Source of the DNA: Dehalococcoidia bacterium
Lineage (GTDB): Bacteria > Chloroflexota > Dehalococcoidia > Lucifugimonadales > Australimonadaceae
NCBI GenBank assembly: GCA_965247635.1
Contig: CBDFHJ010000010.1
Coordinates: 773,918-837,917, forward strand
Reading direction: 5' to 3'
DNA: 64,000 bases
In this document: one piece after another, positions 33,481-38,027 of the stretch
Numbering within the stretch: position 1 is the first letter of the stretch
Layout: every line of letters starts with the position of its first letter
Position numbers and translations under genes: made by a program
The notes under the pieces: generated by a model
Told to the model about the DNA's origin: nothing
The model's input: only the letters and a program-made list of their open reading frames with translations
The model's database searches: none

Positions 33481-33675
33481 ACGAAGTCCGCGTGAGTGCC
33501 ATAAATGGAAAACGCCCTCCTCGTCGAGGAAGGCGTCTCCTAGAGACAACGGTCTTAGACCCTCAGGTACCTCCAACCGCTGAACCTCTCCTGGCCTGGA
33601 GATTATCACGGGTCGTCTGAGAGTTCAACATACCAGAGGCTGGCTACGGCAACACCCCCAGTGGGGACTCTTGGG

Positions 33676-35043
33676 GAGGTTACGTCAATGGGTGTGTAAA
33701 CGACATCAGGCGGCGACCTTCTCAGCCGTTGATTCAATGGCGATTCCATCCGCATACTGTGCACCGAGATAGACGTCTTCGATCAACTCAGGGGCCTTCA
33801 GACGCCTGAAGCGCTGTTCGGCGACCATCAACATTTTCCAGATCACCACTATCGCCCGATCGACCCTCTTGCAGCGCTTGGCGGCATCGGTCCGAAGCCT
33901 GAGGGCCGCGAAGGGTGATTCTACCGGGTTCGTCGTGCGAAGGTGCCCCCAGTGCTCCTTTGGGAAGTCATAGAAGGTGACCATGCGGTCCCAGTCCCGC
34001 TCCAAGGCCTCTGAGGCCGCCTCGTAGGAATGGTCGCCGCACCACCTGGTGAACACCGTCCTGAGCCGCTCAGCCTCTGTCCGAGTCGGCGCGTAGGGGA
34101 TAGTACGCAGCATGAGCTTGGCCTGGTCCTGTTGTCGCTTTGGAAGCTTGGCGAGCACGTTTACGATCTTGTGGTTCCAGCAGCGTTGCTCTGCCGCCTG
34201 CGGATAGACGTTGCGCAGAGCTCCCCAGATGCCCAGGTGTCCGTCCCCAACCACCAGCCTCGAGCACTCCAGCCCGCGGCGCCTCATGTCCCTGAGCACA
34301 TCGGACCAGTTCTCTGTGGACTCCCTGTATCCGGGAACAGCGCTCACCACCACCTTGCTCCCGTCGCTCAGGGCCGCCACCACCACCAGTACTGCCGCCT
34401 TCTCCTTCTCAAGACCAGCCTTGACGTAGACTCCATCCACCCACATGTAGACCACTTCCAGGTCATCTAGGGGCCGGCTGCGCCATTGGGCAAGCTCATC
34501 GTTCCACTTGGACTTCAACCGGGCCACCGTGCTCGCCGATACCGGTGCGTCCTCTCCCAGCAGCCCCCGCAAAGCCAGATCGAAGTCGCCTTCGGATAGA
34601 CCGTGCAGGTACAGCTCGGGGATCAACTCAGCAACCTTCCTGGTCCTGTTGACGAACAGCGGCAGCAGCCGGCTCTCGAACTGCTCCTCGGTATCGCGGA
34701 CTCGCGGCCGCCTCAGCTGTATCGTTCCCGAACTCAGCGTAAGCCTCCGGGCTCTGCCGTATCCGTTCCGATAGCCGGTATCGTTGTCCGAGTCGGATCT
34801 GAGCGCCGACTTCGCCCTTCCCAGAAACGCCGTCACCTCCTCCTCCAGCAACTCCTGGATCAGCCTCTGGACCTGGCTTCGCACCCAATCCTCCAACTGC
34901 TCCCACTCCGGCCTTGACTCCGACCTACTCTCAGTGCTTTCCTTCCTCATGGGCGGTCTATCTCCTCTCTTGGGCCTCGAGCCCGTGTTGTTCAGAGAGA
35001 GGGTACACCGCCTGACTGTTTACACACTTTTTGAAGATACCTC
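33676..35043 (-). mobile_element. IS256-family insertion sequence, copy 1 (1368 bp)
   Basis: The ends are GAGGTTACGTCAATGGGTGTGTAAACGAC.. and ..GTCTGTTTACACACTTTTTGAAGATACCTC, which form imperfect terminal IRs sharing GTGTGTAAAC..CAGGCGG. It is near-identical to 35297-36664. Confidence 0.9.
33706..34950 (-). CDS. IS256-family (Mutator-type) transposase
   Basis: 414 aa. Carries VDGVYVK, GDGHLGIWGAL..VYP.A..QRCWNHK and the NPVESPF signature of Transposase_mut. Confidence 0.9.
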   Translation of the reverse strand: MRKESTESRSESRPEWEQLEDWVRSQVQRLIQELLEEEVTAFLGRAKSALRSDSDNDTGYRNGYGRARRLTLSSGTIQLRRPRVRDTEEQFESRLLPLFVNRTRKVAELIPELYLHGLSEGDFDLALRGLLGEDAPVSASTVARLKSKWNDELAQWRSRPLDDLEVVYMWVDGVYVKAGLEKEKAAVLVVVAALSDGSKVVVSAVPGYRESTENWSDVLRDMRRRGLECSRLVVGDGHLGIWGALRNVYPQAAEQRCWNHKIVNVLAKLPKRQQDQAKLMLRTIPYAPTRTEAERLRTVFTRWCGDHSYEAASEALERDWDRMVTFYDFPKEHWGHLRTTNPVESPFAALRLRTDAAKRCKRVDRAIVVIWKMLMVAEQRFRRLKAPELIEDVYLGAQYADGIAIESTAEKVAA

Positions 35044-35044
35044 C

Positions 35045-35149
35045 CTTGCCGTGAAACGCCTTGAGGTCCAGCGGCCGGTCGCTATTCAGCCACTGGAGGC
35101 CCTCGGGAAAGTCCGGCGCGTTCACGGTACCGGCGTATTTGGTCGCCAT
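35045..35149 (-). pseudogene. detached, inverted 5' end (35 codons) of the thioredoxin-NHL gene
   Basis: [35 protein letters not shown]. It continues seamlessly as VLLLDFWTYCCINC at 36673 on the other strand. Confidence 0.85.
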
Positions 35150-35296
35150 CACGCCCCCTAGGCGGCCCCCCGCAGAGTCCAGGACGTGGCCCTGGACCCA
35201 TATGCGGTGTCCCTATCGACAGAGTCAGCGAAGCGCTCGTAAGCCCTCGCCGGTTCGTCATTGGTGCAAGTTCCTTAGCAGGGCGCGGCCCAAGAG

Positions 35297-36664
35297 GAGG
35301 TATCTTCAAAAAGTGTGTAAACAGTCAGGCGGTGTACCCTCTCTCTGAACAACACGGGCTCGAGGCCCAAGAGAGGAGATAGACCGCCCATGAGGAAGGA
35401 AAGCACTGAGAGTAGGTCGGAGTCAAGGCCGGAGTGGGAGCAGTTGGAGGATTGGGTGCGAAGCCAGGTCCAGAGGCTGATCCAGGAGTTGCCGGAGGAG
35501 GAGGTGACGGCGTTTCTGGGAAGGGCGAAGTCGGCGCTCAGATCCGACTCGGACAACGATACCGGCTATCGGAACGGATACGGCAGAGCCCGGAGGCTTA
35601 CGCTGAGTTCGGGAACGATACAGCTGAGGCGGCCGCGAGTCCGCGATACCGAGGAGCGGTTCGAGAGCCGGCTGCTGCCGCTGTTCGTCAACAGGACCAG
35701 GAAGGTTGCTGAGTTGATCCCCGAGCTGTACCTGCACGGTCTATCCGAAGGCGACTTCGATCTGGCTTTGCGGGGGCTGCTGGGAGAGGACGCACCGGTA
35801 TCGGCGAGCACGGTGGCCCGGTTGAAGTCCAAGTGGAACGATGAGCTTGCCCAATGGCGCAGCCGGCCCCTAGATGACCTGGAAGTGGTCTACATGTGGG
35901 TGGATGGAGTCTACGTCAAGGCTGGTCTTGAGAAGGAGAAGGCGGCAGTACTGGTGGTGGTGGCGGCCCTGAGCGACGGGAGCAAGGTGGTGGTGAGCGC
36001 TGTTCCCGGATACAGGGAGTCCACAGAGAACTGGTCCGATGTGCTCAGGGACATGAGGCGCCGCGGGCTGGAGTGCCCGAGGCTGGTGGTTGGGGACGGA
36101 CACCTGGGCATCTGGGGAGCTCTGCGCAACGTCTATCCGCAGGCGGCAGAGCAACGCTGCTGGAACCACAAGATCGTAAACGTGCTCGCCAAGCTTCCAA
36201 AGCGACAACAGGACCAGGCCAAGCTCATGCTGCGTACTATCCCCTACGCGCCGACTCGGACAGAGGCTGAGCGGCTCAGGACGGTGTTCACCAGGTGGTG
36301 CGGCGACCATTCCTACGAGGCGGCCTCAGAGGCCTTGGAGCGGGACTGGGACCGCATGGTCACCTTCTATGACTTCCCAAAGGAGCACTGGGGGCACCTT
36401 CGCACGACGAACCCGGTAGAATCACCCTTCGCGGCCCTCAGGCTTCGGACCGATGCCGCCAAGCGCTGCAAGAGGGTCGATCGGGCGATAGTGGTGATCT
36501 GGAAAATGTTGATGGTCGCCGAACAGCGCTTCAGGCGTCTGAAGGCCCCTGAGTTGATCGAAGACGTCTATCTCGGTGCACAGTATGCGGATGGAATCGC
36601 CATTGAATCAACGGCTGAGAAGGTCGCCGCCTGATGTCGTTTACACACCCATTGACGTAACCTC
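35297..36664 (+). mobile_element. IS256-family insertion sequence, copy 2 (1368 bp)
   Basis: Same termini as copy 1. The transposases differ at only 3 residues (L/P, Q/R, S/P). Confidence 0.9.
35390..36634 (+). CDS. IS256-family transposase
   Basis: See copy 1. Confidence 0.9.
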   Translation: MRKESTESRSESRPEWEQLEDWVRSQVQRLIQELPEEEVTAFLGRAKSALRSDSDNDTGYRNGYGRARRLTLSSGTIQLRRPRVRDTEERFESRLLPLFVNRTRKVAELIPELYLHGLSEGDFDLALRGLLGEDAPVSASTVARLKSKWNDELAQWRSRPLDDLEVVYMWVDGVYVKAGLEKEKAAVLVVVAALSDGSKVVVSAVPGYRESTENWSDVLRDMRRRGLECPRLVVGDGHLGIWGALRNVYPQAAEQRCWNHKIVNVLAKLPKRQQDQAKLMLRTIPYAPTRTEAERLRTVFTRWCGDHSYEAASEALERDWDRMVTFYDFPKEHWGHLRTTNPVESPFAALRLRTDAAKRCKRVDRAIVVIWKMLMVAEQRFRRLKAPELIEDVYLGAQYADGIAIESTAEKVAA

Positions 36665-36665
36665 C

Positions 36666-38027
36666 GGCAAGGTGCTCCTGCTGGACTTCTGGACCTACTG
36701 CTGCATCAACTGCATGCACATCATCCCGCACCTGCGCCGTCTGGAGCGGCACTTCCCGGAGGAGCTGGCGGTGGTGGGCGTGCACTCCGCCAAGTTCGAT
36801 CAGGAGCGGTCCACGGAGAACATTCGCCAGGCCATCATGCGCTACGGCGTCAGCCATCCCGTCGTCAACGACGCCGACATGCGCGTCTGGCAGGCATACG
36901 GCGTCCGCGCCTGGCCCACGCTGATGTTCGTCGGTCCCCAGGGCAAGGTCATCGGCAAGGTGGAGGGTGAGCTGACCTACGAGCAGGGCGTTCAGATTAT
37001 CGGCGACATGGTCCAGGAGTTCCGCGCGGCGGGCTTGCTCCAGCCAGCGCCGCCCATCACCACCACGGAGCAGCCTCCGGCATCTGTGCTGAGCTTCCCC
37101 GGCAAGGTGCTGGCCGACGGCGGAGTGGATGGCCTGGGAGCGCGGCTCTTCATCGCCGACTCGGGCCACCATCGGGTCCTGGTGGCCGGCCTAGATGGGC
37201 GTATCTCCATGGTTATCGGGAGCGGTAATGAGGGATTCGCCGACGGCTCGCTGGAGGGCGCCCAGTTCAACCGGCCGCAGGGCATGGCGCTGAGGGGCGA
37301 CACGCTCTACGTGGCCGACACGGAGAACCACGCGGTCCGGCGGGTGGACCTCAGGCAGGGAGTCGTGGAGACTATCGCGGGCACGGGGCAGCAGGGCAGA
37401 GGGCCAGGCGCGGGAGGTGAGGCCACGCGCGTTGACCTCAGGTCGCCCTGGGATGTGGTAGTGGTGGGCGACAAGCTGCACATCGCCATGGCCGGCAACC
37501 ATCAGCTCTGGCCCTCGGTGGGAAGCGGGGCGGAGAACATCATAGACGGGCCGTTGACATCGGCGGCCCTGGCCCAGCCCAGCGGCATCGTGGAGGAGCA
37601 CGGCGTCCTCTACTTCGCCGATAGCGAGACCAGTGCTGTTCGCACTGCCGACCTGACGGGGAGCGGCCGGGTGAGCACGCTGGTTGGCCGGGGGCTGTTC
37701 GACTTCGGTGACCGAGACGGCGACGGGAGCGGAGCGCGGTTTCAGCACCCGCTGGGCGTGGACGTGCGTGATGGAGTGGTGTACGTGGCCGATACCTACA
37801 ACAGCAAGGTGAAGCGGGTAGGCGCGCGGACTCGTTGGGTTGAGACGGTGGCCGGTACCGGCAGCCCCGGGCTGTTGGACGGACCCCTAAGCGAGGCGCA
37901 GTTCTACGAGCCCGGCGGAGTCAGCCTGCTCGGCGAGCGGCTCTTCGTAGCGGACACGAACAACCACGCGCTCCGGGTGGTGGACCTGGCCCAAGGCGTG
38001 GTGAGCACGCTGCCAGTGGATTTTTAG
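36666..38027 (+). pseudogene. thioredoxin-fold (redoxin) + NHL-repeat protein, 5'-truncated by the IS
   Basis: (GK)VLLLDFWTYCCINCMH..VVGVHSAKF followed by NHL blades (YVADT.NH.VRRVD, FADSETSAVR, YVADTYNSKVKRV, FVADTNNHALRVVD). The track start at 36576 lies inside the IS. Confidence 0.85.

What the first reader, a model, noticed from the sequence alone, without database searches (positions are those of the whole stretch)
33668..36672. An inverted IS256-family pair has split a thioredoxin-NHL gene and flipped its 5' end; exchanged 8-bp target duplications reconstruct the event
Seen in the sequence: two 1368-bp IS copies (33676-35043 on the minus strand, 35297-36664 on the plus strand, with 3 aa differences in the transposase) flank a 253-bp segment. 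That segment carries, on the minus strand, the first 35 codons of a gene ([35 protein letters not shown]). The continuation of this gene (VLLLDFWTYCCINC.. plus NHL blades) lies on the plus strand immediately right of the second IS. The flanks are CTCTTGGG | IS1 | CCTTGCCG ... CCCAAGAG | IS2 | CGGCAAGG. Each IS therefore has one copy of duplication 1 (CTCTTGGG) and one of duplication 2 (CGGCAAGG), and the inner copies are reverse-complemented. Established knowledge: IS256-family elements make 8-9-bp duplications. Exchanged, inverted duplications are the signature of inversion between two inverted IS copies, or of intramolecular replicative transposition. Flipping 35044-35296 back restores an intact 5' region and promoter-proximal sequence interrupted by only one IS.
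Basis: partly seen in the sequence, partly recalled or inferred. Interest (0 to 1): 0.6.

Follow-up and report, generated by a model that had tools for sequence, protein, structure and literature searches.

The report
IS256-pair inversion splitting a thioredoxin-NHL gene
Two oppositely oriented copies of a jumping gene (an IS256-family insertion sequence present about 77 times in this small Dehalococcoidia genome) have broken a thioredoxin-NHL gene and flipped its first 253 bases, a well-documented but textbook kind of bacterial genome rearrangement.

Summary
Two 1368-bp IS256-family copies (33676-35043 minus, 35297-36664 plus; 3 base differences) flank a 253-bp piece. The 8-bp flanks are exchanged exactly as described.

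Removing both copies and one copy of each duplication, then flipping the piece, gives a 486-aa thioredoxin-like + NHL gene. Its N-terminus matches 11 orthologues. Its DNA is colinear with the uninterrupted gatB/Trx-NHL/tuf locus of a close relative (95% protein identity).

The element occurs about 77 times in full (4.5% of a 2.8-Mb genome). 24 copies carry perfect 8-bp duplications. Two other inverted pairs show the same exchanged-duplication footprint.

Most likely there were two insertions followed by RecA-type recombination between the inverted copies. One-step transposition-coupled inversion and a wrong or mixed orientation in the assembly remain as rivals.

The gene is dead either way: an IS sits in codons 33-36. 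I also found a 30-bp deletion of a conserved propeller strand.

This scan has found IS-bounded inversions with swapped duplications several times on other DNA. Real, neat, ordinary.

The parts
31598..33121 (-). gatB, the conserved divergent neighbour of the Trx-NHL gene. It shows that the left flank is the native upstream region.
   Evidence: ORF. gatB lies divergently next to the Trx-NHL orthologue in 8 of 11 relatives and in the close relative L126.
33668..33675 (+). Outer copy of target-site duplication 1 (CTCTTGGG), in the gatB/Trx-NHL intergenic region, 139 bp upstream of the ATG in the reconstruction.
   Evidence: The relative has CTCCTGTG at the colinear place.
33676..35043 (-). IS1, a 1368-bp IS256-family insertion sequence. 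Its right-end repeat (IRR) is at 33676-33701 and its left-end repeat (IRL) at 35018-35043, so the left end faces the segment.
   Evidence: Terminal inverted repeats match at 20 of 26 positions.
33706..34950 (-). Transposase of IS1 (414 aa; L35, Q90, S229).
   Evidence: It has the same family as the IS2 transposase.
35044..35296 (-). Inverted 253-bp segment. It holds reverse-complemented duplication 2 (35044-35051, CCTTGCCG), codons 1-35 of the Trx-NHL gene (35045-35149, minus strand), its 139-bp upstream leader or promoter region, and reverse-complemented duplication 1 (35289-35296, CCCAAGAG).
   Evidence: The relatives L126 and L127 have this stretch in the opposite orientation relative to the flanks.
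35297..36664 (+). IS2, a 1368-bp IS256-family insertion sequence. Its IRL is at 35297-35322, facing the segment, and its IRR at 36639-36664.
35390..36634 (+). Transposase of IS2 (414 aa; P35, R90, P229).
   Evidence: PF00872 E=6e-56. NF033543 IS256 family, 293.7 bits against a cut-off of 150.
36665..36672 (+). Outer copy of target-site duplication 2 (CGGCAAGG), covering codons 33-36 of the gene.
   Evidence: A single identical copy sits in the uninterrupted relative.
36672..38027 (+). Remainder of the Trx-NHL gene: codons 36-486 plus the stop, including the CxxC thioredoxin-like domain and the NHL propeller.
   Evidence: It is 95% identical to the intact P0001.
37503..37511 (+). Second lesion. 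This is the single remaining copy of a 9-bp direct repeat (CAGCTCTGG), marking a 30-bp in-frame deletion that removes QLWTLDLATG.
   Evidence: All 12 orthologues compared keep this strand. At DNA level the relative has CAGCTCTGG-21 bp-CAGCTCTGG.

Best explanation
A 1368-bp IS256-family element inserted twice, in opposite orientations, into the 5' end of a thioredoxin-like/NHL-propeller gene. One insertion lies 139 bp upstream of the start codon and duplicated CTCTTGGG. The other lies in codons 33-36 and duplicated CGGCAAGG. The second copy was probably a local hop from the first.

Homologous (RecA-type) recombination between the two inverted copies then flipped everything between the crossover points. 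That stretch includes the 253-bp piece with the promoter region and first 35 codons. Each IS now carries one copy of each duplication, with the inner copies reverse-complemented.

Shown: the structure, the exchanged duplications, the ancestral colinear arrangement, IS256-family membership, the 8-bp duplication habit, and the presence of recA.

Inferred: the order of events and the recombination step.

The gene is inactivated in either orientation and has begun to decay, with a 30-bp deletion of a conserved strand. The flip has no plausible regulatory role.
For: Structure:
- The exchanged 8-bp duplications are exact.
- The reconstruction gives a 486-aa Trx+NHL open frame. Its N-terminus and join match 11 orthologues.
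- The uninterrupted locus of a 95%-identical relative is colinear across both sites.
- gatB synteny is conserved.

Element:
- It is an IS256-family member.
- 24 copies have their own perfect 8-bp duplications.
- By the literature the family moves by copy-out-paste-in through circles, which makes simple insertions with their own duplications (PMC7986276).
- IS256-bounded inversions with reverse-complemented duplications are already described (PMC6496109).

Genome-wide pattern:
- Among inverted pairs less than 12 kb apart with readable duplications, 3 are flipped and 3 unflipped. This is what reversible recombination after independent insertions predicts.
- One flipped pair (C8 420845/429740) differs at 7 sites, so it cannot be a freshly replicated sister pair.
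- recA is intact.

Relatedness of IS1 and IS2:
- They are mutual nearest neighbours.
- They are the only two copies identical over IS positions 1000-1368. This fits a local hop or gene conversion.
Against: - No reads could be examined. Neither the orientation in the assembly nor population heterogeneity is verified.
- The final structure is identical to that of a one-step intramolecular transposition, so sequence alone cannot exclude it.
- The three differences between IS1 and IS2 lie at sites that are polymorphic among other copies. They need an extra step (gene conversion or different donors) under any model.
Confidence: 0.7

Rival explanations
1. One-step event. A single resident IS copy attacked a target 237 bp away on the same molecule (intramolecular replicative transposition, 'trans' attack, as for IS26/Tn3/Mu). 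That would create the second, inverted copy and the inversion together, splitting the new 8-bp duplication between the two copies.
For: It gives exactly the observed structure (mechanism described in PMC7986276). IS1 and IS2 are mutual nearest neighbours and uniquely share the outer third. Three such short-range flipped pairs exist in one genome.
Against: - The IS256 family is listed among copy-out-paste-in elements that use circular intermediates, not cointegrate-type replication (PMC7986276).
- The two copies differ at 3 sites, and another flipped pair differs at 7.
- Equally close inverted pairs that kept their own duplications exist.
- About 0.5 adjacent pairs within 253 bp and 21 within 12 kb are expected by chance. 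2 and 25 are observed, so no special mechanism is needed.
Confidence: 0.12
2. The flip is not fixed or not real. The assembler chose one of two orientations for a short unique piece between 1.37-kb inverted repeats, or the population holds both. The true or major state may be two simple insertions with the segment unflipped.
For: - Inversion inside the repeats creates no new junction sequence, so only reads longer than about 1.5 kb can decide.
- The genome is a metagenome-assembled genome, going by the titles of similar records.
- The 3:3 ratio of flipped to unflipped pairs would also fit random choice.
Against: - The assembly resolves about 77 near-identical copies with distinct variant patterns, in contigs up to 975 kb. 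That implies long reads, which would span the 3-kb structure.
- IS1 and IS2 are kept distinct at 3 sites.
Confidence: 0.15

Closest known systems
IS-mediated inversions recognised by exchanged (hybrid) target-site duplications. Examples: the IS256- and IS257-bounded inversions in S. aureus pSK1-family plasmids (PMC6496109); transposon-bounded inversions in Drosophila (PMC3698922, listed but not read). The same signature was noted by this scan for IS1, IS1397, IS66 and a MITE.
   Same: Two inverted copies of one element, each lacking its own duplication and carrying one copy of each of two duplications. The uninverted state is seen in relatives.
   Different: - The segment is very short (253 bp, 237 bp between the sites), so only a gene's promoter and first 35 codons are flipped.
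- The host is an uncultured Dehalococcoidia bacterium with an extreme expansion of the element.
- Three such events occur in one 2.8-Mb genome.
IS256 (Staphylococcus/Enterococcus), type element of the IS256 family.
   Same: - Single DDE (Mutator-type) transposase gene.
- About 1.3-1.4 kb long.
- Imperfect terminal inverted repeats of about 26 bp.
- 8-bp target duplications.
   Different: An unnamed, distant member: its transposase matches the family model but was not compared with any named element. It is 97-98% identical in protein to copies in other, distantly related Dehalococcoidia genomes.
Intramolecular replicative transposition of IS26/IS6-family and Tn3-family elements (PMC7986276).
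   Same: The outcome is an inverted second copy, an inverted intervening DNA, and a split target duplication.
   Different: That mechanism is established for other families. The IS256 family is reported to use copy-out-paste-in circles. The two copies here are not identical.
Thioredoxin-like + NHL-repeat proteins (the architecture of human NHLRC2, from my own knowledge; bacterial 'thioredoxin-like domain-containing protein').
   Same: An N-terminal thioredoxin-like domain with CxxC (CINC), followed by an NHL beta-propeller. There are thousands of homologues.
   Different: Here the gene is a pseudogene: an IS in codons 33-36, a flipped 5' end and a 30-bp deletion.

Membership tests
IS256 family of insertion sequences | Transposase matches the family's curated model (Mutator-type DDE transposase). 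| tested here: met
   NF033543 scores 293.7 bits against a cut-off of 150. PF00872 gives E=6e-56.
IS256 family of insertion sequences | Single transposase gene in an element of about 1.3-1.5 kb with imperfect terminal inverted repeats. | tested here: met
   The element is 1368 bp with one 414-aa ORF. The terminal repeats match at 20 of 26 positions.
IS256 family of insertion sequences | 8-9-bp target-site duplications. | tested here: met
   24 of 76 full copies have perfect 8-bp direct duplications. Three more have 7, 9 or 10 bp.
IS256 family of insertion sequences | Copy-out-paste-in transposition through a circular intermediate. | not testable with these tools
   Known for IS256 itself (PMC7986276). 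No circle junctions can be sought without reads.
IS-bounded inversion by homologous recombination | Two copies in inverted orientation with reciprocally exchanged target duplications. | tested here: met
   In IS orientation, the left flank of IS1 equals the right flank of IS2 (CGGCAAGG), and the right flank of IS1 equals the left flank of IS2 (CCCAAGAG).
IS-bounded inversion by homologous recombination | The uninverted, uninterrupted arrangement exists in relatives. | tested here: met
   L126 and L127 (95% protein identity) are colinear with the reconstruction over both sites. Eleven orthologues keep the N-terminus.
IS-bounded inversion by homologous recombination | The arrangement is supported by reads that span a whole IS copy. 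| not testable with these tools
No exact gene products are on record elsewhere. The junction pattern is absent from JGI metagenomes.
IS-bounded inversion by homologous recombination | The host has recombination machinery. | tested here: met
   recA is intact, scoring 425.7 bits.
Intramolecular replicative transposition (IS6/Tn3 type) | The two copies are sister copies, identical at birth. | tested here: inconclusive
   There are 3 differences at sites polymorphic in other copies, yet the two copies are mutual nearest neighbours with a uniquely shared outer third.
Intramolecular replicative transposition (IS6/Tn3 type) | The element family transposes through cointegrate-type replication. | not testable with these tools
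   The literature places the IS256 family among copy-out-paste-in elements (PMC7986276).
Thioredoxin-like/NHL-repeat protein | Thioredoxin-like domain with CxxC, followed by NHL repeats. | tested here: met
   PF13905, PF00578 and PF01436 hit the reconstructed protein, and the motif is WTYCCINC.

The most novel reading that the evidence does not exclude
The short inverted pairs of this element are made in one step by the transposase itself, an inversion-generating intramolecular pathway not described for the IS256 family. Alternatively, the 253-bp piece flips back and forth in the living population, so that IS pairs act as frequent reversible switches during an ongoing IS burst in a Dehalococcoidia lineage.
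Probability: 0.12. Interest if true: 0.45.

Novelty: new member of a known kind. Interest (0 to 1): 0.22.

Why it matters
This is a clean, fully reconstructible example of how an IS burst remodels a small genome. Both insertion sites, the ancestral sequence in a close relative and the resulting pseudogene are all visible.

The wider context is more interesting than the single event. An uncultured Dehalococcoidia genome of 2.8 Mb carries about 77 full and 40 partial copies of one IS256-family element, 4.5% of its DNA. Most copies have lost their own duplications. At least three short inversions have each broken a gene.

Such genomes could be used to study IS expansion and early genome decay in free-living, uncultured bacteria. 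The inversion mechanism itself is textbook.

Tried and rejected
- Exact-product look-ups found nothing on record. I tried the chimeric 483-aa ORF, the 64-aa 5' fragment ORF and both transposase variants.
- A scan of JGI metagenome contigs for the IS2/gene junction gave no match.
- Short contigs or junction patterns as an orientation test: rejected. Both IS left ends are identical near the segment, so recombination inside the IS creates no new junction. Only molecules spanning a whole IS can decide.
- IS1/IS2 variant patterns as a way to locate the crossover or choose between models: not informative. The outer thirds are identical, and every crossover position is equally parsimonious.
- A regulatory (phase-variation) reading of the flip: rejected. 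The coding sequence is interrupted at codons 33-36 in both orientations, and the gene has a second lesion.
- Sigma-70-type promoter scan: no site in 33100-36800, so nothing can be said about promoters.
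Full report
**Observation**

The repeat finder reports one inverted repeat with arms 33675-35044 and 35296-36665, 251 nt apart. With ends set at GAGG...CCTC, each copy is 1368 bp (33676-35043 on the minus strand, 35297-36664 on the plus strand). The copies differ at IS positions 197, 362 and 781. These give three transposase differences, L35P, Q90R and S229P.

The flanks read CTCTTGGG|IS1|CCTTGCCG ... CCCAAGAG|IS2|CGGCAAGG. The choice of ends and of an 8-bp duplication is not arbitrary. In the whole genome, 24 of 76 full-length copies have perfect 8-bp direct duplications with exactly these ends. In IS orientation, the left flank of IS1 equals the right flank of IS2 and vice versa. 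Two exact 8-mers matching reciprocally by chance is negligible.

**The element**

The 414-aa protein matches the NCBIfam IS256-family model (NF033543, 293.7 bits, cut-off 150) and Pfam Transposase_mut (E=6e-56). The terminal inverted repeats match at 20 of 26 positions.

The window's genome has 2.81 Mb in 10 contigs. Titles of records carrying the most similar IS copies read 'MAG: Dehalococcoidia bacterium'. The genome holds 77 full-length BLAST matches, 76 of which pass the end criteria, plus 40 partial matches. Together they make 127.8 kb, or 4.55% of the genome. Mean pairwise difference among copies is 5.2 bases, so this is a recent burst.

**The gene**

I removed both IS copies and one copy of each duplication and reverse-complemented 35044-35296. 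This gives a 486-aa open frame with Thioredoxin_8/AhpC-TSA and NHL repeats.

Orthologues of 58-72% identity in 11 related genomes cover the query from residue 1-4 onward. They share the N-terminus (K/R)YAGKVNAPxFP..WLN....L....F.GK|LLLLDFWTYCCINCMH, so the join at GK|V is correct. gatB is the divergent neighbour in 8 of these 11.

A database search found an intact protein of 95% identity, P0001. Its two contigs, L126 and L127, carry the uninterrupted locus gatB<- ->Trx-NHL->tuf.

At DNA level, the reconstruction is colinear with L126 across both sites.
- Site 2: the relative reads TTTCACGGCAAGGTGCTCCTG, identical, with a single CGGCAAGG.
- Site 1: the relative reads GACTCCTGTGCCGCGCCCTG where the reconstruction reads GACTCTTGGGCCGCGCCCTG.

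The ancestral arrangement is therefore shown, not only inferred.

Flipping alone leaves two IS copies, one 139 bp upstream of the ATG and one in codons 33-36. 'Interrupted by only one IS' is true only under the one-step model.

**A second lesion**

The window's gene lacks 10 residues (QLWTLDLATG) that all 12 compared orthologues keep. In DNA this is a 30-bp deletion between 9-bp direct repeats CAGCTCTGG, with the remaining copy at 37503-37511. This fits a pseudogene that has started to decay.

**Mechanism**

Both candidate mechanisms give the same final structure.
- Two-step: two insertions, then recombination between the inverted copies.
- One-step: intramolecular replicative transposition, which creates the second copy and the inversion together.

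I favour the two-step route for five reasons.

1. The IS256 family is listed among copy-out-paste-in elements with circular intermediates (PMC7986276). These make simple insertions.
2. Three inverted pairs less than 12 kb apart kept their own duplications, at C8 54197/63532, C8 79454/92062 and C10 750576/757809. Three pairs are flipped, at C7 63880/66384, C8 420845/429740 and the present one. That ratio is what reversible recombination after independent insertions would give. In the other two flipped pairs, flipping back restores 391-aa and 847-aa lipoprotein frames.
3. The flipped pair on C8 differs at 7 sites, so it is not a fresh sister pair.
4. With 76 copies, about 0.5 adjacent pairs within 253 bp and 21 within 12 kb are expected by chance. 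Observed numbers are 2 and 25.
5. recA is intact.

IS1 and IS2 are mutual nearest neighbours. They are the only two copies identical over IS positions 1000-1368. This suggests a local hop or gene conversion between them, and it does not separate the models. IS256-bounded inversions with reverse-complemented duplications are already described (PMC6496109).

**What remains open**

Recombination inside the IS creates no new junction sequence. Only molecules that span a whole IS can prove the orientation. Exact-product look-ups and a metagenome pattern scan found nothing.

The assembly resolves about 77 near-identical copies with distinct variants in contigs up to 975 kb. It was therefore very probably built from long reads that span the 3-kb structure. 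Even so, a wrong choice or a mixed population cannot be excluded. I give that 0.15.

**Verdict**

This is a textbook IS-bounded inversion by an unnamed IS256-family element. It is remarkable only for its small size and for the scale of the IS expansion around it. The scan has reported the same footprint on other DNA for IS1, IS1397, IS66 and a MITE.

Noticed in passing
whole genome G000 (e.g. C7:63880-67751, C8:420845-431107): One IS256-family element has expanded massively: 77 full and 40 partial copies, 4.55% of 2.81 Mb. 49 of 76 full copies lack a direct duplication, and few of those have an identifiable partner. Two further inverted pairs have exchanged duplications, and flipping them back restores lipoprotein genes.
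   Followed up: partly
window 37503-37511: A 30-bp in-frame deletion between 9-bp direct repeats removes a strand (QLWTLDLATG) that is conserved in all 12 orthologues. It is a second lesion in the IS-broken gene.
   Followed up: yes
L123, L124, L125 (orthologues in distant Dehalococcoidia genomes); also the G025, G026, G029, G031 and G035 rows: Order-level orthologues of the Trx-NHL gene have an in-frame TGA exactly at the first cysteine of the CxxC motif (WTYC*INC against WTYCCINC here). This looks like a selenocysteine/cysteine pair in this protein family. No SECIS element was sought.
   Followed up: partly
L043-L071 (CAXXWW01), L058/L062 (CBDFKU01), L064 (CBDFGS01): Transposases 97-98% identical to this one occur in many copies in other Dehalococcoidia genomes. 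In the genomes holding L043, L058 and L092, the Trx-NHL orthologue is only 56-58% identical; the genome holding L064 gave no match. This points to recent horizontal spread of the element between distant lineages, with expansions in several of them.
   Followed up: partly
window 36576-38027: An open frame starts at a GTG inside the right end of IS2. It runs in frame into the remaining Trx-NHL coding sequence, giving a 483-aa chimeric ORF. The same IS-end frame is open at IS1 (33606-33764, minus). It is probably fortuitous. In both orientations the gene's own promoter reads into a transposase gene in sense.
   Followed up: no
window 33115-33177 and 35191-35253; L126 5494-5924: Short repeated elements (CCTG.ACC...TGCGGTGTCCC ... 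AAGCCCTCGCCGG) lie in the gatB/Trx-NHL intergenic region and inside the flipped segment. The close relative has an extra copy of about 100 bp there. These are probably the hairpin (REP-like) repeats noted elsewhere in this genome.
   Followed up: no
window 38105-39449 against L126 7491-7995: The HExxH lipoprotein gene between Trx-NHL and tuf, which is frame-broken in the window, is absent from the 95%-identical relative. There tuf follows after 504 bp.
   Followed up: no
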